A stretch of DNA of 46,776 nucleotides from NCBI GenBank assembly GCA_023145575.1, contig JAGLDN010000153.1, positions 1 through 46,776 on the forward strand, in the 5' to 3' direction. A program made the position numbers and the translations under genes. A model generated the notes under the pieces. That model saw only the letters and a list, made by a program, of their open reading frames with translations. It was not told where the DNA came from and ran no database searches. Below, piece after piece: positions 17,037 through 46,676 of this stretch. Each line of letters starts with the position of its first letter. Position 1 is the first letter of the stretch. This stretch comes from Psychromonas sp. Its GTDB lineage: Bacteria; Pseudomonadota; Gammaproteobacteria; Enterobacterales; Psychromonadaceae.

Positions 17037-19016
17037 ATGGCCTCTAAGCTAGATCCTCTAATGGTGAAGATCCAAACTCAGCTTTTACAAGTAACGTTCA
17101 TTAAAAATATGACACTTTTACAGAATAAAATGCCTACTATTTATGAATATTATAAAGATTACATACCAACAAAAGTACAATTAAAGCTAGATGATGATAG
17201 TCGGGTTAATTTGCTTGCTAATGGACAGTTTGTTTACCAAGGGGATCCTAGGTTAGAGAGTCAGGCACAAGTTGATGCGTTTTCAAAATCGCCAGTAAAT
17301 TTTGATTATGAGATAATTCCTGAAGAAACATATTTCTATCAGCATCAGCAAGTTGTTAATGAAATATTTAATAAACGAATAGAGGAAATTGGGTCAAGTA
17401 TGCCAAGCTGCCTCCACAAAAATGGAGATATTACATTTCTTGCCATCATGGGTGCTGGGCTTGGTTACCATATTGAAATTCTATTAACTCAATTTTCAAT
17501 TCGCAGTGTTTTTTTATTTGAACCTGAGCCTGATTGTTTTTTTTCGGCACTGCACTGCGTTGACTTTGAGCCATTACTCGCGCATTGCACAAAACGTGGT
17601 GGCGAATTTACTATCAAAATCGGGGGGGATGAATATGAATATGTTAATGACATTAATGCTTCTTTTAAAAGTCGAGGGTATTTTAATTGTGTAAAAATGT
17701 ATTTATATCGTCATTATATTAGCGATAAAACAACAGATGCATTTAAACTGATCAATGATCTTGGTTACCGCTACCAAAGTGGTTGGGGATTTTGTGAAGA
17801 TGAAGTGATTGGTATTAGTCATACACTCACCAATATATCTGAAAATAACGCCCCAATATTATTAACCTCGGCAAAACAAAACAAAAGAAATCTACCCGTT
17901 TTTGTGATAGGTAATGGCCCCTCCCTAAATACATGCATCGAGTATTTAAAAGTAAATCAAGACAATGCTATTATTTTCTCTTCAGGTACGACTTTAAAAC
18001 CATTATTAAATAATGACATCATCCCAGACTTTCATGTTGAGCAAGAACGTCCTGCTACAATTTATCAATGGGTGAAGAAAATTGGACATGAAAAAACATT
18101 AAAAAAAATCGACTTGATTTGTCTTAATACAGTTTACCCTAAAATTTTATCTTTATTTAAAAAAGCATACATTGTATTAAAAGCCGGAGATGCGGGGACA
18201 ACTTTTATCCACGATTCAATTTCTAAAAAATATGAAGAGCTCTTTTTTTCTAACCCTACAGTGACCAATGCTTCAACAGCTATCGCTATCGCAATGGGTT
18301 TTAAAAGAATCTATTTATTTGGACTTGACTATGGCTTTAAAACCGAAGGCGAGCAGCATGCCCAAGGGAGTATTTATGATGATATAAAAGATTATAAGTT
18401 AAGCAAACACTTGGAAGTGCTTGGAAATTTTGGCGGGAATATTGAAACGACTCGCACCTTTGATTTTTCGCGCGGTGTACTCGAAATGCTACTTGCTGAA
18501 AATACAGATGTCCAGTGCCTAAATACAAGTGATGGCGCTAAAATAACACATACAATCCCGATAAAAATAACAGATATGCCAATATTTCCATTACTCAAAG
18601 GAAAACAAAAATATGCTCAAAAAGCATTATCAAGCAGTTTTAATAACAATTATTGGCAACAATGCAATATAATAGCATCGTTTCAAACATTACAGCCAAA
18701 ATTCCAACAATATATAAAACAGCTTATTGAATTTACTGCTAATGTAAAAACGCGCTTGGAATTAGTCAATGCGTTTACTGTGCAATATCAATTTTTAAAT
18801 GATGTTAAAAATGACAGCACAAAAAAATTATTTCTTCGTTTTATGAGTGGTTCGCTTAATTACTTGCAATCAACGGTGGTAAGTAACGTATATTATTTTT
18901 CAAAGGCAGAAGATCAAAGCGCATTTATTTCGTTCTCTTTGAATAAAATGAATGATCATTTCATTTGGCTCGTCAATGATCTGGCACAGAATTATAATCA
19001 ACCAGCAAAAAGGTAG
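17037..19016 (+). CDS. maf: Motility-associated factor (Maf, DUF115/MAF_flag10) flagellin nonulosonic-acid glycosyltransferase
   Basis: GAGLGYH, FEPEPD, GWGF, VIGNGPSL, PDFHVEQER, PTVTN and IYLFGLDYGF; lies between fliD and pse genes. Confidence 0.9.
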   Translation: MASKLDPLMVKIQTQLLQVTFIKNMTLLQNKMPTIYEYYKDYIPTKVQLKLDDDSRVNLLANGQFVYQGDPRLESQAQVDAFSKSPVNFDYEIIPEETYFYQHQQVVNEIFNKRIEEIGSSMPSCLHKNGDITFLAIMGAGLGYHIEILLTQFSIRSVFLFEPEPDCFFSALHCVDFEPLLAHCTKRGGEFTIKIGGDEYEYVNDINASFKSRGYFNCVKMYLYRHYISDKTTDAFKLINDLGYRYQSGWGFCEDEVIGISHTLTNISENNAPILLTSAKQNKRNLPVFVIGNGPSLNTCIEYLKVNQDNAIIFSSGTTLKPLLNNDIIPDFHVEQERPATIYQWVKKIGHEKTLKKIDLICLNTVYPKILSLFKKAYIVLKAGDAGTTFIHDSISKKYEELFFSNPTVTNASTAIAIAMGFKRIYLFGLDYGFKTEGEQHAQGSIYDDIKDYKLSKHLEVLGNFGGNIETTRTFDFSRGVLEMLLAENTDVQCLNTSDGAKITHTIPIKITDMPIFPLLKGKQKYAQKALSSSFNNNYWQQCNIIASFQTLQPKFQQYIKQLIEFTANVKTRLELVNAFTVQYQFLNDVKNDSTKKLFLRFMSGSLNYLQSTVVSNVYYFSKAEDQSAFISFSLNKMNDHFIWLVNDLAQNYNQPAKR

Positions 19017-19030
19017 CAGGGATAAAACTG

Positions 19031-20437
19031 ATGAGTTTGATGGTAAAAAATAATCCAAGTTCAATAAAAAAATTAAAGCAAGCAACTCAAGAAACGAATA
19101 AGGGAAACTATCAAAAATCTATTAAGTTATGTCACAAAATAATAAAAAAATTCCCTAACGATGCGGTTACTTATAAATTGCTCGCGACTAATTTACTAGA
19201 ACTGAATCGATTTTCTGAAGTTGAAATAGCATTAAAAAAAGCAATTAGCCATTGCGATGAAGCGGGATCTCAGCCACTGATACACCTACTGGGCTGCAAT
19301 TATTTAAACCTTGAATCCTATAAAAAAGCACTGGGTATATTTGAAGACTTATTTAATAAAACCGGCGATCCTAAGATTTTACTCGATATAGCGCTTTCTT
19401 ACTTTAAATTAGGTGATTATGAAAGTGCACGCGATGTTTACTATAAATTGCTCGAGTTAGATCCAGATAATCATCAAGCTAAATTTAATTTATACCCTAT
19501 TCTAATCTATTTTCAAGACTATAAAAATGCTTGGACTTGTTTTCATAGTCGTATTGAACGCCAAGAGATGAAGGATCAATTGCATTGGTTTGCACCTGCT
19601 TGGAATGGTGAATCATTGGTAGGAAAAAATATACTGATTTATCCAGAGCAGGGGATTGGAGATAATCTTTCTTATACAAGCTGTTTTTCTGAAGCCATAA
19701 ATGATGCGAAACAGGCGCATATTGTTTGTGATAACCGTTTAAAAGGGCTGTATGAATATAACTTTCCAAATGCGACTATTCACTCCTACCAAGATGTTAA
19801 TAAAAGGCAAGCTGTGAGCACTGATCTAGATCTTCAAATTTTGGCGGGTTCATTAACTTATTTATATAGGACTTCAGCTGCTTCTTTTAGCAACAATAAA
19901 CGCCTAGTGATTAGTGATAAATTAAAACAACAAAAGAATAATTACCTCTCTAAGACAAAACTTCGCATTGGTTTATCTTGGTATCATGGGAAAGTTAATG
20001 ACGGTAATCAATACTCAATGACGCTTGAAGAGATGCTACCGCTATTAAAAATAGAAGGTGTTCAATGGATCAACCTACAATTTGGCGAGTGGAAAAAAGA
20101 AGTTGATAATATGCAAGGAAAACACAATATTTGTATTCAGCATTTTGACGATTGTTCTGCGGCAGGTAATTTTGAGGATTATGGCGCATTGATTGCTAAC
20201 CTAGATTTAGTGATCTCTGCAAGTAATGCCGCGCTAATGTTATCAACACGCCTAGGTGTTAAATCTTGGATGTTTTTGCCATTGAAAAATTTTTCTAAGG
20301 AAGGTCAAGCATTTCAAGATTGTTTATCATTTAAGGGACAACGTAATTTCTATAAAGATTTTTCTTCTGATTGGTGCGCTGTGATTAATCAATTTTGTGA
20401 AGGATTAAACAGCATAATAAAAAGAGATGTCAAATGA
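19031..20437 (+). CDS. TPR-repeat protein with C-terminal GT-B (GT9-like) glycosyltransferase domain
   Basis: N-terminal TPR helices; WNGESLVGKNILIYPEQGIGD, RIGLSW, WINLQFG and LIANLDLVIS. Confidence 0.8.
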   Translation: MSLMVKNNPSSIKKLKQATQETNKGNYQKSIKLCHKIIKKFPNDAVTYKLLATNLLELNRFSEVEIALKKAISHCDEAGSQPLIHLLGCNYLNLESYKKALGIFEDLFNKTGDPKILLDIALSYFKLGDYESARDVYYKLLELDPDNHQAKFNLYPILIYFQDYKNAWTCFHSRIERQEMKDQLHWFAPAWNGESLVGKNILIYPEQGIGDNLSYTSCFSEAINDAKQAHIVCDNRLKGLYEYNFPNATIHSYQDVNKRQAVSTDLDLQILAGSLTYLYRTSAASFSNNKRLVISDKLKQQKNNYLSKTKLRIGLSWYHGKVNDGNQYSMTLEEMLPLLKIEGVQWINLQFGEWKKEVDNMQGKHNICIQHFDDCSAAGNFEDYGALIANLDLVISASNAALMLSTRLGVKSWMFLPLKNFSKEGQAFQDCLSFKGQRNFYKDFSSDWCAVINQFCEGLNSIIKRDVK

Positions 20438-21174
20438 AAAATATTGCGGTGATCCCTGCTCGAGGGGGAAGTAAGCGGATCCCTGAAAAGAATATAAAAC
20501 TCTTTTGTGGAAAACCAATCATTGCCTATAGCATTGAAGCGGCTTTAAACTCTGGAATTTTTGATTCTGTAATTGTTTCTACCGATGATGAAAAAATTTC
20601 CAAAATTGCAAAACAATTTGGTGCTGAAGTCCCTTTTCTACGACCTAAGCATTTAGCAGATGACCATACCAGTACTTCCAGTGTCATTCAGCATACCGTT
20701 GTAGAGTTGCAAATACTAGGCTATGAAATCAACTTGGTTTGTTGTATTTATGCAACCGCGCCTTTTTTACAAAAAAAATATATTGTTAACGCAGTTAATG
20801 AATTAAAAAAACAAACAAATAAAACCTCAGCCTTTACCGTGTGCAAATTTAATTACCCTATCCAACGCTCATTTACCCTTGAGTCGCCCAATCAAAATGT
20901 AACCCCAGTTGATAAAAGTGCGCTACCTAAACGTTCACAAGACTTGCCAAATGTTTATCATGACGCAGGGCAATTTTATTTGGCACAAAAAAACGATTTT
21001 TTACATAACAGTTTCAATATTTTTTCTCCTCATTCAATACCTATCATTTTGCCTCATTATTTAGTCCAAGACATTGATGATAACGATGATTGGCGTAGAG
21101 CTGAATATATGTATAAAGCTTTTATTTTAGATAATGACAACATTGAAAAAAGTGTTCGTTATGATGAGTCATAA
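20434..21174 (+). CDS. pseF: Pseudaminic acid cytidylyltransferase
   Basis: IPARGGSKRIPEKNI, CCIYATAPF, RSQDL..YHDAGQFY and VQDID. Confidence 0.92.
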   Translation: MKNIAVIPARGGSKRIPEKNIKLFCGKPIIAYSIEAALNSGIFDSVIVSTDDEKISKIAKQFGAEVPFLRPKHLADDHTSTSSVIQHTVVELQILGYEINLVCCIYATAPFLQKKYIVNAVNELKKQTNKTSAFTVCKFNYPIQRSFTLESPNQNVTPVDKSALPKRSQDLPNVYHDAGQFYLAQKNDFLHNSFNIFSPHSIPIILPHYLVQDIDDNDDWRRAEYMYKAFILDNDNIEKSVRYDES

Positions 21175-22225
21175 CGTCCAGATATCAGGGCGAAAAATAT
21201 CTCAAACTGAGCCGCCTTTTGTGATTGCAGAGCTATCAGGTAATCACAACCAATCATTAGATCTTGCATTGAAAATGGTAGAAGCCGCTGCACAAGCTGG
21301 AGTAGATGCGATTAAGCTACAAACCTACATAGCCGAAACAATGACGCTCGACTGTGAATTAGATGATTTTCAAATATTATCAGACAACAACCTATGGAAA
21401 GGTAATTCGCTTTATAATTTATATGAAAAAGCGCACACTCCTTGGGATTGGCATCAAACACTTTTTAATAAAGCAAAATCATTAGGCTTAATTGCTTTTA
21501 GCTCCCCCTTTGATATTAGCGCCGTTGAGTTTTTAGAAACATTAGATGTGCCTTGTTATAAAATAGCCTCCTTTGAAAATAATGATATTCCACTAATAAA
21601 ACGCATTGCAGAAACTGGGAAACCTGTCATTATGTCCACGGGTATGGCCTCACTTACAGAAATTTCAGAAGCTGTTGATTGCTTGAAAAATAATGGTTGC
21701 TCAGAACTTATCTTATTGAAATGTACTAGTGCTTATCCTGCCAGCCCTGCGCACGCTAATTTAAAAACTATTAAGCATCTGCGTGAGACATTTAAATGTG
21801 AGATAGGAATATCTGATCATACTTTAGGCATAGGTGTCGCGCTAGCAGGGGTTGCATTAGGCGCATCAGTGATTGAAAAACATTTTGTATTATCACGAGA
21901 TGCTGGGGGTGTTGATGCGGCCTTCTCATTAGAACCCGAAGAATTAAAACTATTAGTTAATGAAAGTAAGGCTGCAGCATTAGCTGTTGGACAGGTATTA
22001 TACGGTGGTACATGTAGTGAGCGAGATTCTAAAAAATATCGCCGCTCAATTTATATTTCTCAAAACATAAAAAAAGGTGATGTTTTAACCAATAAGAACT
22101 TACAAGTCATTCGCCCTGCCTTAGGGCTTGCTCCAAAGTTTCATACCTTGGTGTTAGGTCAACGTATAATAAAAGACACCGTTAAGGGAACACCACTGTC
22201 TTGGGACTTATTAAAAAATGAATAA
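21161..22225 (+). CDS. pseI: Pseudaminic acid synthase
   Basis: IAELSGNHNQ, AIKLQTY, AHTPWDWH, YKIASFE, SDHTLG, IEKHF and C-terminal SAF domain. Start probably ATG 21161 or 21164; ORF track gives 21134. Confidence 0.93.
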   Translation: MMSHNVQISGRKISQTEPPFVIAELSGNHNQSLDLALKMVEAAAQAGVDAIKLQTYIAETMTLDCELDDFQILSDNNLWKGNSLYNLYEKAHTPWDWHQTLFNKAKSLGLIAFSSPFDISAVEFLETLDVPCYKIASFENNDIPLIKRIAETGKPVIMSTGMASLTEISEAVDCLKNNGCSELILLKCTSAYPASPAHANLKTIKHLRETFKCEIGISDHTLGIGVALAGVALGASVIEKHFVLSRDAGGVDAAFSLEPEELKLLVNESKAAALAVGQVLYGGTCSERDSKKYRRSIYISQNIKKGDVLTNKNLQVIRPALGLAPKFHTLVLGQRIIKDTVKGTPLSWDLLKNE

Positions 22226-22228
22226 CGT

Positions 22229-23257
22229 ATGACATATCCCATTCTTTTCAGATTTGATGGTGGAAATAAGATAGGGCTAGGGCATGCTTATCGTTGTTTT
22301 GCTTTAATCGAATATTTGGCATTACACCATAAAATAATCTGCTTGATTATTGTAAACCAATTGCCAGAATTTCTCTGTTTAAAGCTAAAAACGCTTAATT
22401 GTTCGGTGTTATCATTTAAGAAAAATGATGATGAAATAGCGATAATTAAACGATGTAGCGCTCAAAATAACAGTACAGGATTAATTTTAGATGGCTATCA
22501 ATTTGATCAAGCTTACAGGCTTAAGCTTGCGCGTTTAGGTTTGAAAATTATATGTTTTGACGATACCAATTCATTACGAAAATTACATTGCGATATTATC
22601 ATTAATTCACAGCCACAGGCTAAACTATTAGGCTATCAATATTCAGCGCCTTATGCCTTACACTTGCTTGGTTTGTGTTATAGTATAGTATGTCAAGACT
22701 TTATCGCAAGTCGTAAGCTTAATTTTTGTGATAGAAAAAAAATCCTGATCAATTTTGGTGGCAGTGATTGTACTGATTTAACAATAACATTTATTCAAAA
22801 ATTAGCAATTGTTCAGGATCTGATTGATCCGTGCGATGTAGTTATTGTCACAGGAGGGGCTTACTCAAGCCCTGATAAAGTCGATGACCTGTGTCAAGAT
22901 GCAGGGTTTGAACATGTCCATAATAGCCAAAATATGGCAAGACTTTTAACCCGATGTCGCATGGCAATTTGTGCTGCTGGTTCAATAGTTTATGAACTTG
23001 CCTATTGTGGTGTACCAAGTATTTTATTAACCGTTGCAGATAATCAACTGTTTTCTGCTCAATCACACCAAAAAGCTGGTTGGTGTTATGCTTTTGATGG
23101 GTTAGACAGTCATGGATTACGCCTAGCATTTTCACGCGCAATATATCTTTGGGCAGATAACGTTCAATTAACTGCCATGTCAGAAAAAGCGATGCAACTC
23201 ATTGATGGGAAAGGTGTTAAACGGATCACTGATCAAATATTAAAAATCTTAGATTAA
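22229..23257 (+). CDS. pseG: UDP-2,4-diacetamido-2,4,6-trideoxy-beta-L-altropyranose hydrolase
   Basis: FRFDGGNKIGLGHAYRC, ILDGY, FGGSD, AAGS..YEL and VADNQ. Confidence 0.88.
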   Translation: MTYPILFRFDGGNKIGLGHAYRCFALIEYLALHHKIICLIIVNQLPEFLCLKLKTLNCSVLSFKKNDDEIAIIKRCSAQNNSTGLILDGYQFDQAYRLKLARLGLKIICFDDTNSLRKLHCDIIINSQPQAKLLGYQYSAPYALHLLGLCYSIVCQDFIASRKLNFCDRKKILINFGGSDCTDLTITFIQKLAIVQDLIDPCDVVIVTGGAYSSPDKVDDLCQDAGFEHVHNSQNMARLLTRCRMAICAAGSIVYELAYCGVPSILLTVADNQLFSAQSHQKAGWCYAFDGLDSHGLRLAFSRAIYLWADNVQLTAMSEKAMQLIDGKGVKRITDQILKILD

Positions 23258-23288
23258 ATATGAAAAAACAACACAAGATATTTTTGAA

Positions 23289-23849
23289 ATGATTAATACA
23301 CCAGGTCCTTCCCGAAAATGGGATTTTCATCGCTATGGTGTTAGCCTTAGCAAATTCATTGAGTCTGATATTGAAATGGTTAGACAATGGCGAAACACGC
23401 CAAAAATTTCTCAGCAGATGCTCGATAAAACATATATCACCGAAAAGCAACAACAAGCCTGGTATCAACAACTGATACAAGACGAAAGTCAACAATACTT
23501 TCTCGCTTATTTCAAAGAGCAAGCAATCGGTGTAGTTTCACTTACTAAGATTGACAGATTAGGTGGCACAGCAGAGCCGGGAATGTATATATATAATGAT
23601 GACTTTCTCAATAATATCGTACCTTTTTGTGTTGCATTTGCACTCAATGATTTCGCCTTTGAGGAACTACAATTAAAGCGTTTATACGGTAAGATTTACC
23701 TTACCAATAGAGCATCTATTCGCTTTCATGAAGCATCAGGTTATCAAATTGATAAGCATGATAAAAACACAGGCTTGCAGATAATACATTTAGATAAACA
23801 TGCCTATAACTTTGCGAAACAAAAAATAACCCAGTTTATAAGGTATTAA
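23289..23849 (+). CDS. pseH: PseH-like GNAT N-acyltransferase
   Basis: IEMVRQWRN, N.ASIRFHE..G; follows pseG. Confidence 0.75.
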   Translation: MINTPGPSRKWDFHRYGVSLSKFIESDIEMVRQWRNTPKISQQMLDKTYITEKQQQAWYQQLIQDESQQYFLAYFKEQAIGVVSLTKIDRLGGTAEPGMYIYNDDFLNNIVPFCVAFALNDFAFEELQLKRLYGKIYLTNRASIRFHEASGYQIDKHDKNTGLQIIHLDKHAYNFAKQKITQFIRY

Positions 23850-23850
23850 T

Positions 23851-24075
23851 TTGAAAACTATTAATGACATATTCGCAGAAAGCTTAGATATTCCATTAGC
23901 TGATGTGACAGATGATTTAAGCTATCAAGCAATTGCACAATGGGATTCAACTGCTCACATGGTATTGATTGGCGCAATTGAAAATCATTACGATATAATG
24001 ATGGATACGGATGATATTATTGATATGAGCTCTGTTGCCAAAGCTAAAAAGATCATCAAAAAATATCAACAATAA
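23851..24075 (+). CDS. Acyl carrier protein
   Basis: 74-aa acidic protein with phosphopantetheine site WDS.AHM.LI..IE; TTG start. Confidence 0.9.
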   Translation: MKTINDIFAESLDIPLADVTDDLSYQAIAQWDSTAHMVLIGAIENHYDIMMDTDDIIDMSSVAKAKKIIKKYQQ

Positions 24076-24086
24076 ATTGAAAAAAT

Positions 24087-24833
24087 ATGAAACTTCTTGA
24101 AAATAAAAATATTATTGTCACTGGATCATGTCGTGGAATAGGGCTTGCGACCAGTCAATTATTTGCTCAACATGGCGCCAATTTATGGCTCAATGGTCGC
24201 GACGAGCTAGCACTACAAACACTCAGCGCGAAGCTAACATCTCAATTTAAAAATAATAATCATGTGTGTTGTTTTGATGTTTCTGTCTATGATCAGGTTA
24301 AAAATGGTTTTCAATCTCTTTTTAAACAATGTAAAAAACTCGATGTATTAGTTAATAATGCTGGTATATTAGACGATGCTTTGATCGGTATGGTGAGCCA
24401 AAAACAAATTGCTCACACATTTTCAACAAACACTTATAGTGTCCTGTATTGTAGTCAATATGCACAACGATTAATGATACGAAATGGTGGAGGATCTATT
24501 ATTAATTTAGCATCTATTGTCGGTGTGAATGGCAATGCAGGGCAATCTGTCTATGCCGCGAGTAAGGCCGCCATCATTGGCGCGACATTATCTTTATCAA
24601 AGGAGTTGGCAAGCGCTAATATTCGTGTAAATGCAATTGCACCAGGCTTTATCGATACTGACATGGCGCGCTCAATAGGTGACGAGTTATATTTACAACG
24701 CGTTGATAGTATTGCAATGAAACGTGTGGGTAAAGCGCAAGATATTGCCAATACAGCACTGTATCTTGCAAGTGATTTGTCCAGCTATGTGACAGGCCAA
24801 GTTATCGGCGTAGATGGTGGTATGTTAATTTGA
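24087..24833 (+). CDS. FabG-like SDR oxidoreductase
   Basis: TGSCRGIG, NNAG, YAASK, RVNAIAPG and GQVIGVDGG. Confidence 0.92.
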   Translation: MKLLENKNIIVTGSCRGIGLATSQLFAQHGANLWLNGRDELALQTLSAKLTSQFKNNNHVCCFDVSVYDQVKNGFQSLFKQCKKLDVLVNNAGILDDALIGMVSQKQIAHTFSTNTYSVLYCSQYAQRLMIRNGGGSIINLASIVGVNGNAGQSVYAASKAAIIGATLSLSKELASANIRVNAIAPGFIDTDMARSIGDELYLQRVDSIAMKRVGKAQDIANTALYLASDLSSYVTGQVIGVDGGMLI

Positions 24834-24870
24834 GTCATTGTATCTCCTATACCCTTGTTACTGGAATTAT

Positions 24871-26295: not shown

Positions 26296-27346
26296 ATTGA
26301 TAACACTACCTGTTTATCGCCTAACGACAAAACAAAAATCGCCTTTATTTAAAAAGGCATTACAAAACTTAGCGCAATACCATTTTGAAAACAGTGAAGA
26401 TTATCGGTCAATCATACAATTTTTATATCCCGCGCAATGGCTTAATAAAGAGGTCCCTCCCCTGGCTGTCAGCCTTTTTAAACATCACCTACTAAAAAGC
26501 ATCGCAAATGATGATGTTTTCAAAATAACCACGTCATCAGGTACAACCTCTCAACACGTTTCGCGTATTGTTTTAGATAAAATAAATATTGTCCGACAAC
26601 AAAAAATATTGTCAAAAATAATGCAACAATGGCTGGGGCCAAAGCGACTACCCATGTTAATTATCGATCACGCCAATGTGATCAAAGATAAATTTAGTTA
26701 CTCAGCAAGAGGCGTCGGCATTCAAGGTTTATCTTTATTTGGTTATGATCATACCTATGCTTTACATGAGGATATGAGCATCAACATGGCAGCGATAAGT
26801 CAATTCTTTGAGACGTATAAAAACCAGCATATTATTATTTTTGGCTTTACTTTTATTATTTGGCAATACTTTATTGAGGTATTAAAAAAACATGAAAAGC
26901 ATTTTAAGCTTAATAATGTTACCTTGTTTCACAGTGGTGGTTGGAAAAAACTGCAAGCGTTAGCTGTATCAAATAAAACGTTTACCGCGCAAATTAAAGC
27001 ACAATTAGGTCAAATATCCGTGCATAATTTTTATGCCATGGTGGAACAAACAGGTACTATTTATGTCGAATGTGACGCGGGATATCTACATTGTCCCGTT
27101 TGGAGTGATGTGATCATTCGCAGTAAAAAAGATTTATCCGTCATCGAAGAGCTGGGAGTAGAGGGTGTTATTCAAGTGAATTCATTGCTAGCAACAAGCT
27201 ACCCTGGCCATGCGCTCTTAACAGAAGATCTCGGGGTTATCTTTGGTGAAGATAACTGCAACTGTGGGCTAAAAGGTAAATATTTCCAGGTAAATGGCCG
27301 TTTGAAAAAAGCACAAGTAAGAGGCTGTAGTGATACTCAATCTTGA
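26282..27346 (+). CDS. LuxE-like acyl-protein synthetase
   Basis: TSSGTTS..SRI, FGFTF, HSGGWKKL, YAMVEQ, SYPGHALLTEDLG and C-terminal RGC. Start ATG 26282 overlaps the upstream gene; ORF track gives 26198. Confidence 0.88.
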   Translation: MNWDELITLPVYRLTTKQKSPLFKKALQNLAQYHFENSEDYRSIIQFLYPAQWLNKEVPPLAVSLFKHHLLKSIANDDVFKITTSSGTTSQHVSRIVLDKINIVRQQKILSKIMQQWLGPKRLPMLIIDHANVIKDKFSYSARGVGIQGLSLFGYDHTYALHEDMSINMAAISQFFETYKNQHIIIFGFTFIIWQYFIEVLKKHEKHFKLNNVTLFHSGGWKKLQALAVSNKTFTAQIKAQLGQISVHNFYAMVEQTGTIYVECDAGYLHCPVWSDVIIRSKKDLSVIEELGVEGVIQVNSLLATSYPGHALLTEDLGVIFGEDNCNCGLKGKYFQVNGRLKKAQVRGCSDTQS

Positions 27347-30010: not shown

Positions 30011-30012
30011 AC

Positions 30013-38867: not shown

Positions 38868-38989
38868 TATTAAGCGACAATTAACTTGCCCGATCCGCGA
38901 CAACTAACGCGACCAATTTTGGTAAACTTCAGACACGTTTAATCACTAAGATATTTTACATGCCTAAACATCGAATGATCTTTTAAGGG

Positions 38990-39480
38990 ATCCTTTACTA
39001 TTTAGTCGCCATAACGGACATTAAGGCAAGACATTTATAGGTGTTTAAATACCACCACTGTTTGCCCTGAGACCACACCTAAAGCAGTGCAATATGGCGA
39101 TAAAGATAAGACCCATGTCGTGTACATGTTGCAATACCAATTATTACCTTGCCATCGCGTGAAAGCACTTTTTTTAGCCAAATGGGCTTCACTATTTGGG
39201 TATCGCTATTGGTGTTGTCTCACTCTATAATTTTAATAAAATAGTTTATTAAGCCCTTAGTAATTTTAAAAAATAAGTAAAAGCATTGGTAGGCGCGACG
39301 ATTACACATGTTGATGAAGCAGGCGTAAACATTGCAGATCAGGATCACTGGCTACACTTAACTTCAAATGAAGCGTGGACTTTTTGCTACCCTCATAAAA
39401 AGCGCGTCATACCCACTGAAATGATCCCATTTCATGAATATAGCCATGTTACAGTAAGGTGCACTCTCTGCCATTAACTC
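38990..39480 (+). mobile_element. IS66-family TnpC transposase remnant
   Basis: Fragments PKAVQYG, HVVYMLQYQLLP..R and HVDEAGVNI...HWLHLTSNEAWTFCYPHKKR; frameshifted; boundaries approximate. Confidence 0.75.
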
Positions 39481-39761
39481 AGATGGCAGGTCAAGGCACA
39501 ACATGTGGAAGTAGATACTCCCTTTTACATTGTTGAGCCTAAAGCTGCATTTCGACAAAAGTACAAACTTGTGAACATAAAGCATACAGTTCAATTAGAC
39601 CAGTATATGATATTACGGTATTATGGGTTGTCAACTTTATACTTTTAGCTAAGCCTCAACTCTGCCCGTGGTCAATTTCACGGTTTATCGAAGATGTACG
39701 CTTTAATTATAATTCTCTAAAGTAGTTGCAATTATTATTTATATAACTTTAAAGGTTTAAC

Positions 39762-40754
39762 ATGCCCCTTCAACGAAATGGCGATAGTCACGAAAACAAC
39801 GTCTTTACATATATTGAATTTGGTTCGATCAATCGTAAAAAAGGCAAGAAAGAAGTATATGACTTCCGTGTTGATCAAAAAGCATATGACTGGTTGATGC
39901 ATGCTCGCTATTCTAATGATATATTTGCTTATAAGCTGATGACTGATGCCTTAATAACGTTGAATATTGAACAAATAATTAGCACTTTTAAAAATGAAAT
40001 TCATCATGATAATGATTTCATTTTCAACCTAAATAAAAAAATTGCGTTAGATATTACAGGTGACTCTTTTTTTGAATTAGGACAAACTCTTTATGGTTGT
40101 ATTGAGAGTATTGATTTTATTAATAAACTAGAGCAACATTTGTTTCCTGCAAATTCACAGAAAATATGTTTAAAAAATATTAAATGGTTCGGTGTTGATA
40201 TCTCATCATTTTTTAATTTTATGGCACGAAAAATACATGAAGGTTACAAAATAGATACATCAACCCTGCTCTGTGATGCACCTGCGCGTTATGATGTGTT
40301 TTACGCAAAGGGGGTTACCTTGTTATATGCCATTAACTCGGCAAGGGAACTATTTAATCTTGTAACTAACGCTAAAATAGCAGTATTTGATTACTCTATC
40401 AGTTTAACTGAACAAGAGGACACATATATTGGGACGGGCAAGTCTGTACGGTTCTTGAGTAAAGGTCAATTCAACTCTTTTGTTAAATTGGTACGTAGTA
40501 CAGGGAAAGATGTTTGGGTGAGGGGCAATCTAAAAGGTGATTTTAAAACCAACAGATTATATTTGGAAGTCGTAATCGCTGATGATTTTTTATTCAACAC
40601 TTTTATGAAAAAGCAAAATGATTATATTTTAACGTTACAAAAAAATGAGCCAATGCTCTTTGCAACCTTGGTACATAATAAAAATCCAAACTATTGCAAT
40701 TGGTCTAAATTTTCAGATAGTTGTATACCCATGAGTCTTCAAGATGCAAGGTAA
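39762..40754 (+). CDS. Hypothetical protein with degenerate class I methyltransferase fold
   Basis: FFELGQTLYG (motif I-like), WFGVDIS (motif II) and YDVFYAKGVTLLYA (motif IV-like) in canonical order. Confidence 0.5.
   Translation: MPLQRNGDSHENNVFTYIEFGSINRKKGKKEVYDFRVDQKAYDWLMHARYSNDIFAYKLMTDALITLNIEQIISTFKNEIHHDNDFIFNLNKKIALDITGDSFFELGQTLYGCIESIDFINKLEQHLFPANSQKICLKNIKWFGVDISSFFNFMARKIHEGYKIDTSTLLCDAPARYDVFYAKGVTLLYAINSARELFNLVTNAKIAVFDYSISLTEQEDTYIGTGKSVRFLSKGQFNSFVKLVRSTGKDVWVRGNLKGDFKTNRLYLEVVIADDFLFNTFMKKQNDYILTLQKNEPMLFATLVHNKNPNYCNWSKFSDSCIPMSLQDAR
40724..40749 (+). repeat. ERIC/MITE-like terminal motif (copy 2), overlapping the 3' end of ORF 39762-40754
   Basis: tatacccatgagtcttcaagatgcaa; 21/26 identical to 7512-7537. 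Confidence 0.55.
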
Positions 40755-41000: not shown

Positions 41001-41522
41001 ATGGTTATTTGGTTAATTGGCTTGTCAGGCGCAGGTAAAACCATGATAGGCAAAGTACTTTATCAACAATTAAAAAACAAAAAACAGGCAACGGTGTTTG
41101 TTGATGGTGATGACATTAGGGCTATTTTTGCGCAAAGTTCACTACATGACTACTCAATTGAAGGACGGCGCATAAGTGCCGAGAGAATACAAGAAATTTG
41201 TTTATGGCTGGATAAACAAGGAATCGATGTGGTTTGCTGTAATTTGGGACTTTTTACCGATATTAATAATAATAATCGAAACATATTTTCAACTTATAAA
41301 GAAATATTTATTGATGTGCCAATTAAAAATTTAATAAATAGAGATAATAAGGGATTATATAGTGCTGCACTTAACGGCGAAAGATCAGACGTAGTGGGAA
41401 TTAATATCAAGTACACGACTCCTCTCTTTGCCGATTTAATTATAAAAAACAGTCAAAAGACAAAAGACATAAACAGATATGTTGAAAAAATAATATTAAT
41501 GATCAATAAGGACGTAATGTGA
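41001..41522 (+). CDS. APS-kinase-like protein; probable cytidine diphosphoramidate 3'-kinase (Cj1415-like)
   Basis: IWLIGLSGAGKT P-loop, VDGDDIR, RDNKGLY and VVG; co-operonic with Cj1416/17/18 homologs; RBS GGAG. Confidence 0.8.
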   Translation: MVIWLIGLSGAGKTMIGKVLYQQLKNKKQATVFVDGDDIRAIFAQSSLHDYSIEGRRISAERIQEICLWLDKQGIDVVCCNLGLFTDINNNNRNIFSTYKEIFIDVPIKNLINRDNKGLYSAALNGERSDVVGINIKYTTPLFADLIIKNSQKTKDINRYVEKIILMINKDVM

Positions 41523-42964
41523 ACGCTTATCCATATTGTTATGGCCCATTACTTGAAACACCACAGAATTATATGTACAGCCCCTATTTAGGCCCTGGAT
41601 TTATTTCTGATTGGGCTTTATCGCGAGGATCCTATTTAACTAAATTTGGCACTCCCGAGCTTATAGTGTTAACTCCACAATATTCTTTTTTCAGTTCAGA
41701 TCACCCTAATGCTTTTTCGACAAGAGCTATCATAGAACAGCTTTGCTTGGATCTAAGGGGGGGAAATAAAACCTCATATGATGTGACATACTGGCTTGAT
41801 CGTTTGCTAAAAAAATTCGAAGTGAGTAAACGCATTTACAAAAGTTATGGCAAAAATTCGCCACATTATATGATTAGAGAGAGTGGCTTTGAGGATTTAA
41901 ACCTTTATTTACTGTTCGCTGAAGTACTTGTTCATGCGTGGAAACACAAATCAATATCACAGTATATTAATGGATTACTGAAGTTAGTAGATACACTGAT
42001 ATCACAAACCGCTCTTTTAAATATAAAGCAAAAGAAACACCTAGCATGGGTTATAAATAAAGAAAAAATTATTTTAGATAGCATCATTAGCCGCTTAAAA
42101 TTAACAGAAATGAATGATTTTCAGCACGATTCAATTCAATTTGACTCATTGTCATTTAATGAGTATATGTCGCCACATATAGAGCCATCTTACTCTGAAT
42201 TTACATATAAGATGAATAATGATTGTTCTTATGATACTAAACAACACCCTAAGATATTACTTTTGTTTGGACATACTGTCCGATCAGCTAGTTATATCCA
42301 GGCCCTTTGCAATGCTAATATTACACCTCATTCTATTATTGCTTATGGTCAGCAACAAGAGCAACCGACATCATCAAGAATACTCAATATGAGTACTTAT
42401 TCTGATCTTTTTTCTCCTAATCTTCAATTAAATCTTCTACAAAGTTTGATCCAATCTCAATATTTATATACATTATCGACATCAAATGAGCTCTCTTCTC
42501 CTGATTTATTAAGGCAAATTGCTGAGGTAGATCCTGACTTAATTATTTATTCTGGATATGCAGGACAGTTAGTACCAGCATCCATTATTAGCAATTACCA
42601 TGTATTGCATATTCACGCTGGATGGCTTCCTGATTTTCGAGGCAGTACAACATTGTTTTATGAAATAATTGAGGAGAAGATGTGCGCTACCACTGCTATT
42701 TTATTAGATGAAACGATAGATACTGGTGACATTGTTGCTCAAAAACACTTTGCAATGCCGACACCTGGTATGGATGTAGATCATCTATATGATAATATGA
42801 TCAGAGCTGATCTATTAATCGAGATTTTAACGCATTATAACGAATCTGTAGAAGATTGGAAAATAACACCTCAAACCCAACATTGTTTGCCTTATTTCAT
42901 TATTCATCCTTTATTAAAGCATTTGGCGATGTTGATCATTGATAAAGAGAAAGTGGCTCTATGA
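41519..42964 (+). CDS. Fusion of an unknown helical N-terminal domain (~200 aa) and a formyltransferase (Fmt/PurN fold)
   Basis: C-half PDLIIYSGY.GQ, LHIHAGWLPDFRGST and LDETIDTGDIV. N-half has YMYSPY.G, LLKKFEV.KRIY and YINGLLKLVDTL. GTGA and ATGA overlaps with both neighbours. Confidence 0.78.
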   Translation: MNAYPYCYGPLLETPQNYMYSPYLGPGFISDWALSRGSYLTKFGTPELIVLTPQYSFFSSDHPNAFSTRAIIEQLCLDLRGGNKTSYDVTYWLDRLLKKFEVSKRIYKSYGKNSPHYMIRESGFEDLNLYLLFAEVLVHAWKHKSISQYINGLLKLVDTLISQTALLNIKQKKHLAWVINKEKIILDSIISRLKLTEMNDFQHDSIQFDSLSFNEYMSPHIEPSYSEFTYKMNNDCSYDTKQHPKILLLFGHTVRSASYIQALCNANITPHSIIAYGQQQEQPTSSRILNMSTYSDLFSPNLQLNLLQSLIQSQYLYTLSTSNELSSPDLLRQIAEVDPDLIIYSGYAGQLVPASIISNYHVLHIHAGWLPDFRGSTTLFYEIIEEKMCATTAILLDETIDTGDIVAQKHFAMPTPGMDVDHLYDNMIRADLLIEILTHYNESVEDWKITPQTQHCLPYFIIHPLLKHLAMLIIDKEKVAL

Positions 42965-45345
42965 CAATTGATCATCCTCAATTTATTTTTGGCAGCAAAT
43001 CGGAAACGTTAACGCGCCTTAAACCGTTATTAAACGAATCTACAATTTTACCAATGATATATTTTTCGCAAGAAGATTGGCAACATGATCGCAACCTAAT
43101 TTTAACAAGGATCAGAGCATTTTCATCGGCAGAAAAATTAATTATTAGGAGCAGTGCGAAAAATGAAGACAGCCATGAAAGCTCAATGGCGGGAGCTTAT
43201 TTAAGTTGTCTTAATATCTGCATTAATAATGAAACAGGGCTCATAAGCGCAATTGAAAAAGTTATCGGATCCTTTAGTGAATTTTCTCAAGCAGATAATC
43301 AAATATTAATTCAACCTATGTTAACTGATATCAACATGTCAGGTGTTATCATGACGCACGATATTGAGCGTGGCTCTCCGTATTATGTCATAAATTATGA
43401 TGATGAGAGTGGGTTAACCGATACCATTACTGGTGGCGTGGGCATTCACAAAACGGTACTTATTTACCGATATGTGTCGCGAGATAAGATTCATTCTACT
43501 CGCATAAAATCACTATTACTTGCTTGTACCGAGATAGAAAAATACTGTGCCAATGTGCCACTTGATATTGAATTTGCTATCAATAAATCGGGTAATGTTT
43601 ACATATTTCAAGTTCGACGTATTACTCTGATCAATACATGGCACCCTGTAACAGAGCGAAAAATAGCGAGAACGTTAAAGTATGTCACACAGTTTATTCA
43701 TCAAACGATGAACAAAAAAAAAGGGGTGTATGGTAAAAAAACAATACTGGGTGTTATGCCTGATTGGAACCCCGCAGAAATTATTGGCACAACGCCTCGG
43801 CCTTTATCTTCATCTTTATATCGCTATCTAATTACCGATTCTATTTGGCGGACATCACGTGCTGCAATGGGCTATTATCATCCTAAAAACGAAGACTTGA
43901 TGGTAATGATTGATCATCATCCCTATATTGATGTGAGAAATAGCTTCAACACTTTTCTACCTGACAAACTCTCAAGCAGCATTAAAGAAAAATTACTTAA
44001 CGCGTGGATAGCTAGATTAGAAAAATACCCTGAAATGCATGATAAAATTGAGTTTGAGATAGTTCAAACCTGTTTAGATTTTACTTTTGATCAGGATTTT
44101 GAAAATCGTTATAAAAATCTATTAAGTGCCTCTGAGCTGATCGAATACCGCAATGCACTTTGTTCATTAACCTATGACGCAATACTTATGGCAAAAAGTG
44201 GAACATTATCCCAAGCAACCACAATGATTAATGAACTTGCTATTGAACAATCAGTTCATGATTTGCAATCTCGCCAAGCAGATCTGAGCACAGTGCGGGA
44301 TTTATTAATTTCATGCAGAGATAAAGGCACTTATGCTTTTTCAATACTCGCACGTCATGCCTTTATTGCTGAGGCTTTACTACGATCAATTGTTTTTCGA
44401 GATGTGTTGAGTCCTGAACGTTCGCAACAATTTAAACAATCCATCCACACCATTACAACGAATTTAGCTTCTGAATATAGTGAAGTGTGCCAAGGTTTAA
44501 AGCCCGTAAAAGAATTTCTAAATATATTTGGTCACCTTCGCCCAGGTACCTATGATATTACTTCCCTTCGTTATGATGAGCGAAATGATCTTTTTAAGGG
44601 CTCTATTAACAAGACAATAACAAATATTGCAACTTCGTTCACTTTAAATAAATCTGAACGAAAAAAACTACGGTTGTTATTAAAAGAAGCTCAATTTTCA
44701 ATTGAGGTTGAACAACTTTTAACATACATGAAAAGTGCAATTAAAGGTCGTGAATTTGCTAAATGTGTCTTTACGCGTGACTTATCTGATGCGCTTGCCA
44801 CTTTGACGCAATGGGGACAAAAAAACGGATTATCACGGAAGGATCTTTCCTACCTTGATATCAACATTTTACTCGACACATTAACTAATCCATTACTTGA
44901 CGATCCTGACCGCGTTTTATTGCATTATGTAGAGAAGGCAAAACGTGAATGCGAGCAAGCAAACTCACTCAAGTTAGGGCATTTGATTTCAAATCCTAAT
45001 AATGTTTTTGTCATACCCATTCATCGTAGTTTGGCGAACTTTATCACCAGCAAAGTGGTTGAATCTGCCTTAAGTGTATTGTATTTAGACACACCTGCAA
45101 CAACGAAGTTAAGGAATAAAATAATCTGTATTAAAAATGCAGATCCTGGCTATGATTGGTTATTTACCAAAGGGATTGCCGGATTAATTACTCAATACGG
45201 TGGCACAAATTCACATATGGCCATCCGTTGTGCTGAGTTTTCTATTCCTGCTGCTATCGGTTGTGGTGAACAACTATTTTCTCGCATTCTCAAATCTCAA
45301 AAGTTAGTATTAAATTGCCGAGATAAAAAGATTGAGTTGTTGTAA
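42961..45345 (+). CDS. L-glutamine kinase (Cj1418-like; PPDK/PEP-utiliser family)
   Basis: ATP-grasp IIRSSA..ED, LIQPM and DIEFA..YIFQVR; central MPDWNPAEIIG and GHLRPGTYDI; phospho-His domain ADPGYDWLF..GGTNSHMAIRCAE; 794 aa. Confidence 0.88.
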   Translation: MTIDHPQFIFGSKSETLTRLKPLLNESTILPMIYFSQEDWQHDRNLILTRIRAFSSAEKLIIRSSAKNEDSHESSMAGAYLSCLNICINNETGLISAIEKVIGSFSEFSQADNQILIQPMLTDINMSGVIMTHDIERGSPYYVINYDDESGLTDTITGGVGIHKTVLIYRYVSRDKIHSTRIKSLLLACTEIEKYCANVPLDIEFAINKSGNVYIFQVRRITLINTWHPVTERKIARTLKYVTQFIHQTMNKKKGVYGKKTILGVMPDWNPAEIIGTTPRPLSSSLYRYLITDSIWRTSRAAMGYYHPKNEDLMVMIDHHPYIDVRNSFNTFLPDKLSSSIKEKLLNAWIARLEKYPEMHDKIEFEIVQTCLDFTFDQDFENRYKNLLSASELIEYRNALCSLTYDAILMAKSGTLSQATTMINELAIEQSVHDLQSRQADLSTVRDLLISCRDKGTYAFSILARHAFIAEALLRSIVFRDVLSPERSQQFKQSIHTITTNLASEYSEVCQGLKPVKEFLNIFGHLRPGTYDITSLRYDERNDLFKGSINKTITNIATSFTLNKSERKKLRLLLKEAQFSIEVEQLLTYMKSAIKGREFAKCVFTRDLSDALATLTQWGQKNGLSRKDLSYLDINILLDTLTNPLLDDPDRVLLHYVEKAKRECEQANSLKLGHLISNPNNVFVIPIHRSLANFITSKVVESALSVLYLDTPATTKLRNKIICIKNADPGYDWLFTKGIAGLITQYGGTNSHMAIRCAEFSIPAAIGCGEQLFSRILKSQKLVLNCRDKKIELL

Positions 45346-45965
45346 TGCATGAAAAACACACTTTTAAAGCTTTAATTTTTATAAGCCAACGAGTCGATTA
45401 CCTTAAAGAGCGTAATGAAACAAGAGATTCGATTGACCAAGCATTAACTCAGTGGGTGATCGCAGCTGATGCAATTCCCCTGTGTTTACCAAATGTTTTA
45501 TCAGAAGACATGCTAAATCAATTGCTAACACAACTAAAGCCAGATGGTATTATTCTCTCTGGCGGCAATAATATCGGCCAGTATTTGCAACGAGATAGCA
45601 CTGAACACTTTTTGTTTAATTGGGCGTTGTTAAACAAAATACCTGTATTAGGCATTTGTCGTGGTATGCAACTGATCGGTAAATTATCTGGCGTATCGCT
45701 AATCTCTGTTAGCGGGCATACGGCAGTAAAACATAAAATTGAGGGAATATTAAACGCTGATGTGAAGAGCTATCATGATAAAGTATTAGAGAATGTGCCT
45801 AGTGGTTTTAATGCATTAGCTTATGCTTTAGATGGACATCTAGAAGCCATTAAATCTACCTCAGATTGGCCCTGTGAGGCATGGATGTGGCATCCTGAAA
45901 GAGAAACCCCTTTTAACTCAATATGGCTAGCACGGTTTCGATCATTAATCAAAGAGAATAAATAG
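45345..45965 (+). CDS. gamma-glutamyl-CDP-amidate hydrolase (Cj1417-like; class I glutamine amidotransferase/peptidase C26)
   Basis: ISQRVD..ETRDSIDQ, LSGGN, catalytic GICRGMQ and MWHPERE. Confidence 0.85.
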   Translation: MHEKHTFKALIFISQRVDYLKERNETRDSIDQALTQWVIAADAIPLCLPNVLSEDMLNQLLTQLKPDGIILSGGNNIGQYLQRDSTEHFLFNWALLNKIPVLGICRGMQLIGKLSGVSLISVSGHTAVKHKIEGILNADVKSYHDKVLENVPSGFNALAYALDGHLEAIKSTSDWPCEAWMWHPERETPFNSIWLARFRSLIKENK

Positions 45966-46676
45966 ATGAAAGCATTAATATTAGCTGCTGGTAGAGGAAG
46001 TCGAATGAACGATCTCACAGAGCACCGCCCAAAATGTTTAGTTAAATTAAATGGAAAAACATTACTTGCCTATCAGTTAGCTGCGTTACAGGAAGCTGGG
46101 ATAACTGATATTGGCATTGTAACTGGCTATCGTGCAAAAATGCTTAGGCAATTTAACTTAACAGAATTTCATAATGCTCGTTGGTCACAAACTAATATGG
46201 TGCATTCGCTTAGTTGTGCTAAGACATGGCTAAAAGATGATTGTATCATCAGCTATTCAGATATATTCTATAGCGCATCAGCTGTTACCTTGTTGATTAA
46301 AACGAAAGCTGATATTGCGATTACCTACGATCCAAATTGGTTAGAGCTATGGAAAAATCGTTTTGAAGATCCACTCAGCGATGCTGAAACATTTCGCATA
46401 AATGATCACAATGAGTTAATGGAAATTGGCGGTAAGCCACAAAATATTGAGCAAGTGCAAGGCCAATATATGGGATTGCTTAAGTTTACCCCAATAGGCT
46501 GGGCTAGACTTGAAGAATTACGTCAAACGCTTACACCAGAATTACGAGACAAAATACACATGACAGGTGCACTACAAAACATAATTAAAAGGCGTATATT
46601 AGCGATTAAAGCAATCCCCTATTTGGAACGATGGGGAGAGGTTGATTCAGCAGAAGATTTAGCATGTTATCACTAA
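45966..46676 (+). CDS. CTP:phosphoglutamine cytidylyltransferase (Cj1416-like; LicC family)
   Basis: ILAAGRGSRM, PKCL, TNMVHSL, YSDI, W..RFEDPLSDAETF, GQYMGLLKF and W.EVDS..DL. Confidence 0.85.
   Translation: MKALILAAGRGSRMNDLTEHRPKCLVKLNGKTLLAYQLAALQEAGITDIGIVTGYRAKMLRQFNLTEFHNARWSQTNMVHSLSCAKTWLKDDCIISYSDIFYSASAVTLLIKTKADIAITYDPNWLELWKNRFEDPLSDAETFRINDHNELMEIGGKPQNIEQVQGQYMGLLKFTPIGWARLEELRQTLTPELRDKIHMTGALQNIIKRRILAIKAIPYLERWGEVDSAEDLACYH

What the first reader, a model, noticed from the sequence alone, without database searches (positions are those of the whole stretch)
17037..46676. A ~30 kb modular island predicting an unusually elaborate flagellin glycan
Seen: about 24 co-oriented genes directly after fliC/fliD, falling into modules: Maf+Pse, acyl-ACP/LuxCE, CDP-polyol-P, two ribosylation sets, GT2, methyltransferases and phosphoramidate+formyl. 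None looks like a polytopic membrane protein, initiating phosphoglycosyl transferase, flippase, polymerase or ABC exporter. Inference: the acceptor is cytoplasmic, i.e. flagellin primed with Pse by Maf and then extended with chemistry normally seen in capsules and teichoic acids.
Basis: inference. Interest (0 to 1): 0.8.

Follow-up and report, generated by a model that had tools for sequence, protein, structure and literature searches.

The report
Flagellin sugar island with capsule chemistry
Next to this marine bacterium's flagellin gene lie 25 genes that most likely build a long sugar chain directly on the flagellum; the island type is known from Aeromonas, but here it is predicted to add glycerol-phosphate, ribose and a rare phosphorus-nitrogen group otherwise known from capsules and cell walls.

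Summary
In detail: 25 co-oriented ORFs fill 96% of 17037-46676, none polytopic. It is a flagellin glycosylation island (FGI) of the known Aeromonas group II kind: maf, pseF/I/G/H, acp-fabG-AMP-ligase-luxE-luxC, then variable transferases. Its size is ordinary: a 27 kb island is published, and related genomes reach 29-31 kb. No capsule exporter or Wzx was found in this genome or a complete sister genome. The distal chemistry recurs in other maf/pse-bounded islands: the six closest PRPP-ribofuranosyltransferase hits, and 8 of 13 phosphoramidate gene sets. Glycerol-phosphate, ribofuranose and phosphoramidate on flagellin are therefore plausible, untested, and were not found in five literature searches. 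Corrections: (1) the contig ends at a multicopy repeat, so the island may continue; (2) pseB is missing here and broken in the sister, and WbjB likely substitutes; (3) the second ribosylation set is divergent, with Ala at an acidic PRPP-binding site; (4) the TPR-glycosyltransferase beside maf occurs without any Maf in two near-complete genomes, so it may be the FlmG-like priming enzyme. Verdict: new variant of a known kind.

The parts
11011..12738 (+). fliC flagellin, 575 aa, 58,497 Da without Met, 73 Ser + 49 Thr; likely acceptor
   Evidence: Pfam Flagellin_N/C; mass and counts; two loose sigma-28-like sites upstream at 10808 and 10898, no chance control
12897..15459 (+). flaG and fliD
   Evidence: Pfam
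15460..17036 (.). non-coding gap of multicopy repeats, probably IS remnants; much shorter in G248
   Evidence: 58 BLAST hits on other contigs; G248 map; IS identity is my inference, Pfam found nothing
17037..19016 (+). Maf, flagellin nonulosonate transferase family
   Evidence: Pfam Maf_flag10_N 6.7e-43 and MptE-like 1.1e-36; dN/dS 0.16 against G248
19031..20437 (+). TPR + putative glycosyltransferase with FlmG-like architecture; candidate second or main priming Pse transferase
   Evidence: TPR hits; 61-64% orthologues directly after fliD in Maf-less G193 and G205; GT-B fold of the C-terminal part is inferred
20434..23849 (+). pseF, pseI, pseG, pseH (CMP-pseudaminic acid, steps 3-6)
   Evidence: TIGR03584, TIGR03586, TIGR03590 over cut-off; TIGR03585 90.9 bits against a cut-off of 93.1
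23851..28511 (+). acp, fabG, AMP-ligase, luxE, luxC; likely supply an N-acyl group for Pse
   Evidence: same five genes define Aeromonas group II FGIs
28559..30420 (+). TagF-like transferase and TagD-like cytidylyltransferase (most likely CDP-glycerol)
   Evidence: PF04464 1.9e-37; TIGR01518 152.9 bits against a cut-off of 165.4; motifs; in FGIs of G248, G075, G107
30443..32797 (+). HAD phosphatase + PRPP-dependent ribofuranosyltransferase (CrpP-CriT / gPRT family) with a C-terminal Rossmann-like domain
   Evidence: Bcs3 E 4e-23, PDB 7SHG E 4e-14; motifs D37, SDMY, GD..D215, R311-E312, D451, E516 invariant in 7 FGI homologues
32810..34162 (+). GT2 glycosyltransferase with a C-terminal Rossmann-like domain; not Fgi-1-like
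   Evidence: PF00535; only 31-37% over about 110 aa to the GT2s after luxC in G201/G353, which are 63% to each other
34175..36855 (+). stand-alone HAD (34175-34915), SAM methyltransferase (34869-35696), divergent stand-alone gPRT-like protein (35620-36855)
   Evidence: hhalign 92% probability, E 5.8e-7, 313 columns, with R-A-G instead of R-D/E-G; only 3 other homologue clusters found
36852..38867 (+). TagF-like GT-B protein; candidate phosphoramidate transferase
   Evidence: 8 of its 13 aligned family members hit PF04464, the window protein itself does not; model pLDDT 64 matches GT-B folds including TagF and Bcs3
38868..39761 (.). repeat gap, probably an IS remnant
   Evidence: 12 BLAST hits on other contigs
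39762..40754 (+). uncharacterised protein, probable class I SAM methyltransferase
   Evidence: 66 homologues, several from Aeromonas; Atlas feature hits on homologue P0019, 0.91; Pfam and PDB profile gave no support
41001..46676 (+). phosphoramidate donor genes: CysC-like kinase (41001), fused unknown + formyltransferase (41519), PPDK-like glutamine kinase (42961), glutamine amidotransferase-fold hydrolase (45345), nucleotidyltransferase (45966)
   Evidence: PRK05849 943.7 bits, PRK05541 150.9 bits, both over cut-off; NF045546 66.9, under cut-off; motifs His752, Cys105/His183/Glu185; same order at about 54% in FGIs of G107, G145, G113

Best explanation
The region holds a Maf, pseudaminic-acid genes, an acyl-carrier module and soluble transferases next to fliC, and most likely builds an extended O-linked glycan on flagellin in the cytoplasm before export. 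Inferred steps: (1) UDP-GlcNAc is dehydrated, likely by the WbjB/FnlA on contig C202 because pseB is lost; PseC (contig C371) and PseH/G/I/F then give CMP-Pse, N-acylated by the ACP/LuxCE module. (2) Maf and/or the TPR-GT put Pse on Ser/Thr. (3) If gene order follows sugar order as in A. hydrophila ATCC 7966, TagD/TagF would add glycerol-phosphate, the CrpP-CriT enzyme ribofuranose from PRPP, and the GT2 a hexose or HexNAc. (4) The divergent gPRT/HAD pair and a methyltransferase may add a further pentofuranose and a methyl group. (5) The Cj1415-1418-like enzymes make a CDP-phosphoramidate, which the TagF-like 671-aa protein would transfer, perhaps O-methylated by the 330-aa protein. Shown: genes, families, synteny, purifying selection on the 14 genes shared with G248. 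Not shown: any glycan. I give the exact chain about 0.15; the confidence below is for 'extended flagellin glycan'.
For: Layout equals Aeromonas group II FGIs (PMC7874193 passages), where GT deletions shorten the flagellin glycan in gene order (bioRxiv 2024.06.23.600306). Same-genus G193 and G205 have the complete form: fliD, TPR-GT, pseF/I/G/H, acp..luxC, variable genes, pseC, pseB, fliT/fliS, flrABC. The six best of 23 non-self ribofuranosyltransferase hits in 400 genomes lie in maf/pse islands; 6 weaker hits examined do not. Of 80 generic homologues, 1 has maf or flagellin within 10 kb. 8 of 13 phosphoramidate loci lie in maf/pse islands. No KpsC/S, Wza/KpsD or Wzx in G000 or G248. 0 of 15 comparable islands have an ORF with 4 or more hydrophobic windows inside the marker-bounded span. 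dN/dS 0.07-0.36 for maf to the ribofuranosyltransferase. The flagellar genes tested (fliE-I, flgA-J) match as open frames.
Against: No glycan data. pseB is below cut-off in G000 and a pseudogene in G248; the WbjB rescue is untested. The 11 genes after the ribofuranosyltransferase are not in G248's island, so selection on them could not be measured. The Aeromonas marker Fgi-1 is absent after luxC. 4 of 13 phosphoramidate loci are non-flagellar (capsule-like, O-antigen, EPS, isolated) and 1 is ambiguous. RNA support is weak: 37 reads in one stranded run; contigs of another run cover the island but little of fliC/fliD, and one carries a +1 T in a T8 tract of maf. G000 is 94% complete in 500 contigs, so absences are not proven.
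Confidence: 0.78

Rival explanations
1. Hybrid island: the proximal genes (to luxC or to the ribofuranosyltransferase) glycosylate flagellin. The IS-separated distal cassette, above all the phosphoramidate genes, supplies donors for LPS/LOS or another surface glycan.
For: Repeat gaps separate the last six genes. Phosphoramidate is reported in Shewanella and Xanthomonas LPS (PMC3907429 passage). An A. caviae FGI serves both flagellin and O-antigen. 4 of 13 homologous loci are non-flagellar.
Against: The three closest homologous cassettes (54%; G107, G145, G113) are all in maf/pse islands. G107 holds tagF, tagD, the 671-aa and 330-aa homologues and the whole cassette between pseB/C/F and pseI/maf.
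Confidence: 0.13
2. Decaying island in an IS-rich, probably host-associated genome: without PseB no Pse is made, so the chain has no primer and the genes are silent or coasting.
For: pseB is lost or broken; ORF density 69%; many repeats; little flagellin signal in RNA runs and a frameshifting T9 allele of maf in one contig.
Against: All 25 frames are open. pseC dN/dS 0.17 and pseF/I/G/H 0.15-0.33 at dS 0.3-0.5. WbjB is intact in both genomes while the next enzyme wbjC has a stop at codon 194 of 295 in G000.
Confidence: 0.06
3. A Hib/K18-like ribose-polyol-phosphate capsule or teichoic-acid-like polymer locus that happens to sit beside fliC.
For: TagF + TagD + CrpP-CriT is the Bcs3 enzyme set (PMC10299916).
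Against: No KpsC/S, KpsD/Wza or Wzx in G000 or G248, and no match to KpsM/E/D/S/C queries in G000. The same trio follows luxC in the FGI of G075.
Confidence: 0.03

Closest known systems
Aeromonas group II flagellin glycosylation islands (A. piscicola AH-3, A. hydrophila ATCC 7966)
   Same: pseFGHI, acp, 3-oxoacyl-ACP reductase, AMP ligase, luxE, luxC, adjacent Maf, variable soluble transferases, transposases, 18-27 kb
   Different: TagF/TagD instead of Fgi-1 after luxC; PRPP ribosyltransferases and phosphoramidate genes; an extra TPR-GT; pseB lost and pseC elsewhere
H. influenzae b Bcs3 (CroT-CrpP-CriT) and the ribofuranosyltransferase of PDB 7SHG
   Same: HAD + PRPP-transferase domains, E 4e-23 and 4e-14, with a TagF-family neighbour
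   Different: Separate TagF gene, R-E-G instead of R-D-G, extra C-terminal Rossmann-like domain, no Kps export; likely single additions rather than polymerisation
C. jejuni O-methyl phosphoramidate pathway Cj1415-Cj1418 (capsule)
   Same: Kinase, glutamine kinase, amidate hydrolase and cytidylyltransferase families in one block (pathway)
   Different: Flagellar context; inserted formyltransferase fusion; a TagF-like protein as the only candidate transferase
Caulobacter FlmG flagellin Pse transferase
   Same: N-terminal TPR plus C-terminal putative GT-B domain, soluble, beside Pse genes
   Different: 468 aa against 596 aa; in a gammaproteobacterium, whereas FlmG is described as confined to Caulobacterales; sequence homology not tested

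Membership tests
Aeromonas group II FGI | pseF/G/H/I cluster at one end | tested here: met
   (PseH 2 bits under cut-off)
Aeromonas group II FGI | acp, reductase, AMP ligase, luxE, luxC next to pseH | tested here: met
Aeromonas group II FGI | Maf adjacent | tested here: met
Aeromonas group II FGI | pseB/pseC closing the far end of the variable region | tested here: inconclusive
   Contig ends at a repeat; pseC on C371, no pseB over cut-off; in G248 pseC lies about 50 kb away beside a pseB pseudogene; met in same-genus G193 and G205
Aeromonas group II FGI | Fgi-1 GT2 directly after luxC | tested here: not met
   TagF-like gene follows luxC; the window GT2 is unlike the after-luxC GT2s of G201/G353, whose Fgi-1 identity is inferred from position and size
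Aeromonas group II FGI | oligosaccharide on flagellin by mass spectrometry | not testable with these tools
   needs protein
CrpP-CriT ribofuranosyltransferase, ORF 30443-32797 | HAD catalytic Asp and motifs | tested here: met
   D37 aligns with the Bcs3 FDIFDT motif
CrpP-CriT ribofuranosyltransferase, ORF 30443-32797 | acidic residues at the CriT D680, E818, E874 positions | tested here: met
   E312 aligns with Bcs3 RDG; D451 and E516 are invariant, their equivalence to E818/E874 is inferred because the Bcs3 alignment ends at residue 440
CrpP-CriT ribofuranosyltransferase, ORFs 34175 and 35620 | acidic residue at the D680 position | tested here: not met
   R-A-G in the window and two homologues, R-S-G in one; fold-level homology holds (hhalign 92%; control 0.2%)
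C. jejuni MeOPN pathway | four donor enzymes of the Cj1415-1418 families | tested here: met
   that PRK05849 and PRK05541 are the Cj1418 and Cj1415 families is recalled
C. jejuni MeOPN pathway | Cj1421/Cj1422-type transferase | not tested
   No Cj1421 sequence was available from a tool; no Pfam or NCBIfam hit points to one
Group 2/3 or Wzy-dependent capsule | KpsC/S, KpsD/Wza, Wzx | tested here: not met
   0 of 2 genomes for PF05159, PF02563, PF01943
FlmG | N-terminal TPR domain | tested here: met
FlmG | C-terminal GT-B domain homologous to FlmG | tested here: inconclusive
   No Pfam hit; own profile hits a Pfam GT9 protein only at E 0.001; FlmG itself not compared
FlmG | TPR binds flagellin and transfers Pse | not tested
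   No complex prediction was obtained

The most novel reading that the evidence does not exclude
Marine Gammaproteobacteria assemble, directly on cytoplasmic flagellin, a teichoic-acid-like chain Pse-phosphoglycerol-ribofuranose capped by a (methyl)phosphoramidate. They use an FGI-specific clade of PRPP ribofuranosyltransferases and a TagF-fold phosphoramidate transferase, primed by an FlmG-like TPR-glycosyltransferase that can replace Maf, with WbjB standing in for the lost PseB.
Probability: 0.3. Interest if true: 0.78.

Novelty: new variant of a known kind. Interest (0 to 1): 0.52.

Why it matters
It would extend protein O-glycosylation to PRPP-derived ribofuranose, polyol-phosphate and P-N chemistry. 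It would name candidate enzymes for two open steps: a phosphoramidate transferase outside the Cj1421 type, and a Maf-independent flagellin Pse transferase outside Caulobacterales. All enzymes are soluble and use soluble donors, so the pathway could be rebuilt in a laboratory strain. Several cultured-type, complete genomes carry the same cassettes, so the prediction is testable without this fragmented genome. MeOPN is a phage receptor in Campylobacter, so such caps may matter for phage or host recognition (inference).

Tried and rejected
Single-sequence AlphaFold of the 671-aa protein failed (pLDDT 34); the alignment-based model gave only a generic GT-B match. PDB sequence searches found nothing for the 411-aa, 671-aa and 794-aa proteins, or for profiles A3 and A5. 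A narrow gPRT HMM did not detect the 411-aa protein (E 6); only profile-profile comparison did. I first suspected a frameshift in wbjC; it is an in-frame stop. The sigma-70 promoter scan was at chance level (75 found, 79.6 expected). The N-terminal half of the formyltransferase fusion stayed unassigned. The RNA lays cannot separate transcription from DNA carry-over. No complex prediction of TPR with flagellin was obtained. No earlier findings of this scan were returned. PF01061 hits were inspected only in G000 (C189, C366), so a Wzm/Wzt O-antigen exporter in G248 is not excluded.
Full report
Observation. The window is the whole of contig C61, the longest of 500 in a 3.18-Mb, 94% complete genome. 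From 17037 to 46676 there are 25 ORFs on the + strand, covering 95.6% of the span. No ORF has more than one hydrophobic 19-residue window at or above 1.6. Pfam and NCBIfam assign Maf, a TPR protein, PseF/I/G/H, ACP, FabG, AMP ligase, LuxE, LuxC, TagF, TagD, GT2, HAD, a methyltransferase, a CysC-like kinase, a formyltransferase, a PPDK-like protein, a glutamine amidotransferase and a nucleotidyltransferase. The 784-aa ORF matches the CrpP-CriT part of Hib Bcs3 and the ribofuranosyltransferase 7SHG. Two gaps (1,577 and 894 bp) are multicopy repeats, and the contig's last 21 bases end 13 contigs, so the island may continue. That the genus is Psychromonas-like is my inference; no call names it. 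Public runs holding the DNA include cold-seep, seawater and gill metagenomes.

What it is. The first eleven genes reproduce the Aeromonas group II flagellin glycosylation island (FGI): pseFGHI, acp, reductase, AMP ligase, luxE, luxC, an adjacent Maf and then variable transferases (PMC7874193, passages). In A. hydrophila ATCC 7966 such an island is 27 kb with 31 ORFs. Deleting the GTs that follow luxC shortens the flagellin glycan one sugar at a time in gene order (bioRxiv 2024.06.23.600306, parts 1, 3 and 4 of 5). Enterobacterial FGIs reach about 23 kb and often carry LuxC/E and formyltransferases (PMC4875605, one section and passages). Within the genus, G015 and G016 have only 5-6 sugar genes after maf, and G001 only the TPR-GT. 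G193 and G205 have the full form, closed by pseC-pseB-fliT/fliS-flrABC. Marker-bounded spans of 29.6-31.5 kb occur in G107, G205, G286 and G363, and 0 of 15 such islands contain an ORF with 4 or more hydrophobic windows (some spans are partial). Size and lack of membrane proteins are thus normal for this class.

Capsule rival. Neither G000 nor the single-contig sister G248 has KpsC/S, Wza/KpsD or Wzx (0 of 2 each). G248 has O-antigen-ligase-family hits and G000 none. G248 is syntenic from pgm to the ribofuranosyltransferase and then diverges. The 14 shared island genes have dN/dS 0.07-0.36, similar to flanking housekeeping genes at 0.10-0.26. The other 11 genes could not be tested this way.

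Ribose and glycerol-phosphate. Of 400 genomes of the order, 23 had a homologue of the 784-aa protein; I mapped 12. The six full-length best hits (G248, G075, G363, G201, G353, G070) all lie in maf/pse islands after luxC. The six weaker hits lie in capsule-like, sugar or unrelated loci. The island clade has R-E-G/A where the others have R-D-G. Among 80 generic homologues from named genomes, 1 had maf or flagellin nearby. luxC-tagF-tagD-ribosyltransferase recurs in G248 and G075; G363 has tagD with LicD-family proteins in that position. TagD scores best with glycerol-3-phosphate cytidylyltransferase, just under cut-off. The second set, HAD 34175 plus ORF 35620, is a remote gPRT homologue (hhalign 92%, E 5.8e-7, control 0.2%). 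It has Ala at the position of Bcs3 D680, whose replacement by Ala reduces activity (PMC10299916 passages). Its donor is uncertain.

Phosphoramidate. 13 of 400 genomes had a homologue of the PPDK-like protein; I mapped all 13. Eight lie in islands with maf and pse genes (G107, G145, G113, G027, G391, G285, G286, G192). G282 lies beside pseB/pseC without maf in 40 kb. Four are non-flagellar (G219, G308, G383, G020). These genomes are related, so the counts are not independent. G107 carries tagF, tagD, homologues of the 671-aa and 330-aa proteins and the whole cassette between pseB/C/F and pseI/maf. A TagF-like protein lies near the cassette in 9 of 13 loci. TagF enzymes move a phospho-X group from CDP-X (established knowledge), so the 671-aa protein is the natural transferase candidate; this is inference. 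TagB-like domains also occur in nonulosonate transferases (PMC5420450, passages), and the family is large (1,771 representatives). The 330-aa protein resembles class I methyltransferases only in the Atlas search.

The missing pseB. Of 42 genus genomes, 11 have PseI over cut-off and 9 of these have PseB; the exceptions are G000 and G248. G248 keeps a pseB pseudogene between fliT and pseC. pseC is intact in both, dN/dS 0.17. Both keep an intact WbjB/FnlA-like gene, while the next gene wbjC has a stop at codon 194 of 295 in G000. WbjB and FlaA1/PseB are both UDP-GlcNAc 4,6-dehydratases with C5 epimerisation (PMC5774825 and PMC7591256, passages). Substitution is likely but untested.

Who primes. 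The TPR-GT after maf has FlmG's architecture. G193 (100% complete) and G205 (99%) place a 61-64% orthologue right after fliD with a full Pse set and have no Maf-family gene. Two of 29 distant homologue loci have flagellin within about 1.5 kb. Homology to FlmG and flagellin binding were not tested.

Expression. One stranded run gave 37 reads over the region, mostly in the orientation expected for sense RNA. Contigs from another run cover most of the island but little of fliC/fliD and may include DNA. This is weak evidence.

Known versus new. Pentoses and a phosphate moiety are known on Pseudomonas flagellin glycans (PMC3958885, passages). Phosphoramidate is known on Campylobacter capsule and on Shewanella and Xanthomonas LPS (PMC3907429, PMC6429109, PMC9561416, passages). 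Five searches (listings only) showed no paper placing phosphoramidate, PRPP-derived ribofuranose or glycerol-phosphate on a flagellin glycan. The library lacks most subscription papers, and I saw no supplements.

Verdict. A real and probably functional group II-type FGI with an unusual set of distal cassettes: new variant of a known kind, interest 0.52.

Noticed in passing
G248:C1 about 1,932,000-1,954,000 (L052:7326 to L053:9077): About 13 tandem paralogous ORFs of about 445 aa; the two scanned hit M35 aspzincin metallopeptidase. They lie between the second flagellin and a legionaminic-acid-type gene cluster.
   Followed up: partly
window 32483-32797 and 33870-34162; related islands: A small Rossmann-like accessory domain is appended to island transferases. 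It was found in 12 of 14 FGI loci, 1 of 11 other mapped loci and 2 of 78 background loci (profile seeded from FGI proteins, so biased).
   Followed up: partly
window 17537-17544: T8 tract in maf; one contig of RNA run X11 (depth 11) has an extra T, a frameshifting allele, either phase variation or error. The island has 12 homopolymer tracts.
   Followed up: partly
G000:C228:961-2667: A second flagellin, 58% identical, with no Maf beside it; in G248 it follows flrC. It is a possible second acceptor.
   Followed up: no
window 41519-42964: Fusion of an unknown domain of about 190 aa and a formyltransferase; two separate genes in G107, G145 and G113, always between the CysC-like kinase and the glutamine kinase. 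Role unknown.
   Followed up: partly
window 9217-12738: fliC follows hemB here and in G248, but follows pyrF and one more gene in G012, G015, G016 and G193: the flagellin locus has been rearranged.
   Followed up: partly
G000 C241 against C415 and C395: Genes such as eno, ispD and surE occur twice at 68-95% identity: possible contamination of the bin by a relative.
   Followed up: no
G193 L194:9195-11060: Duplicated fliS/fliT and a fliD fragment stand where maf would be.
   Followed up: no
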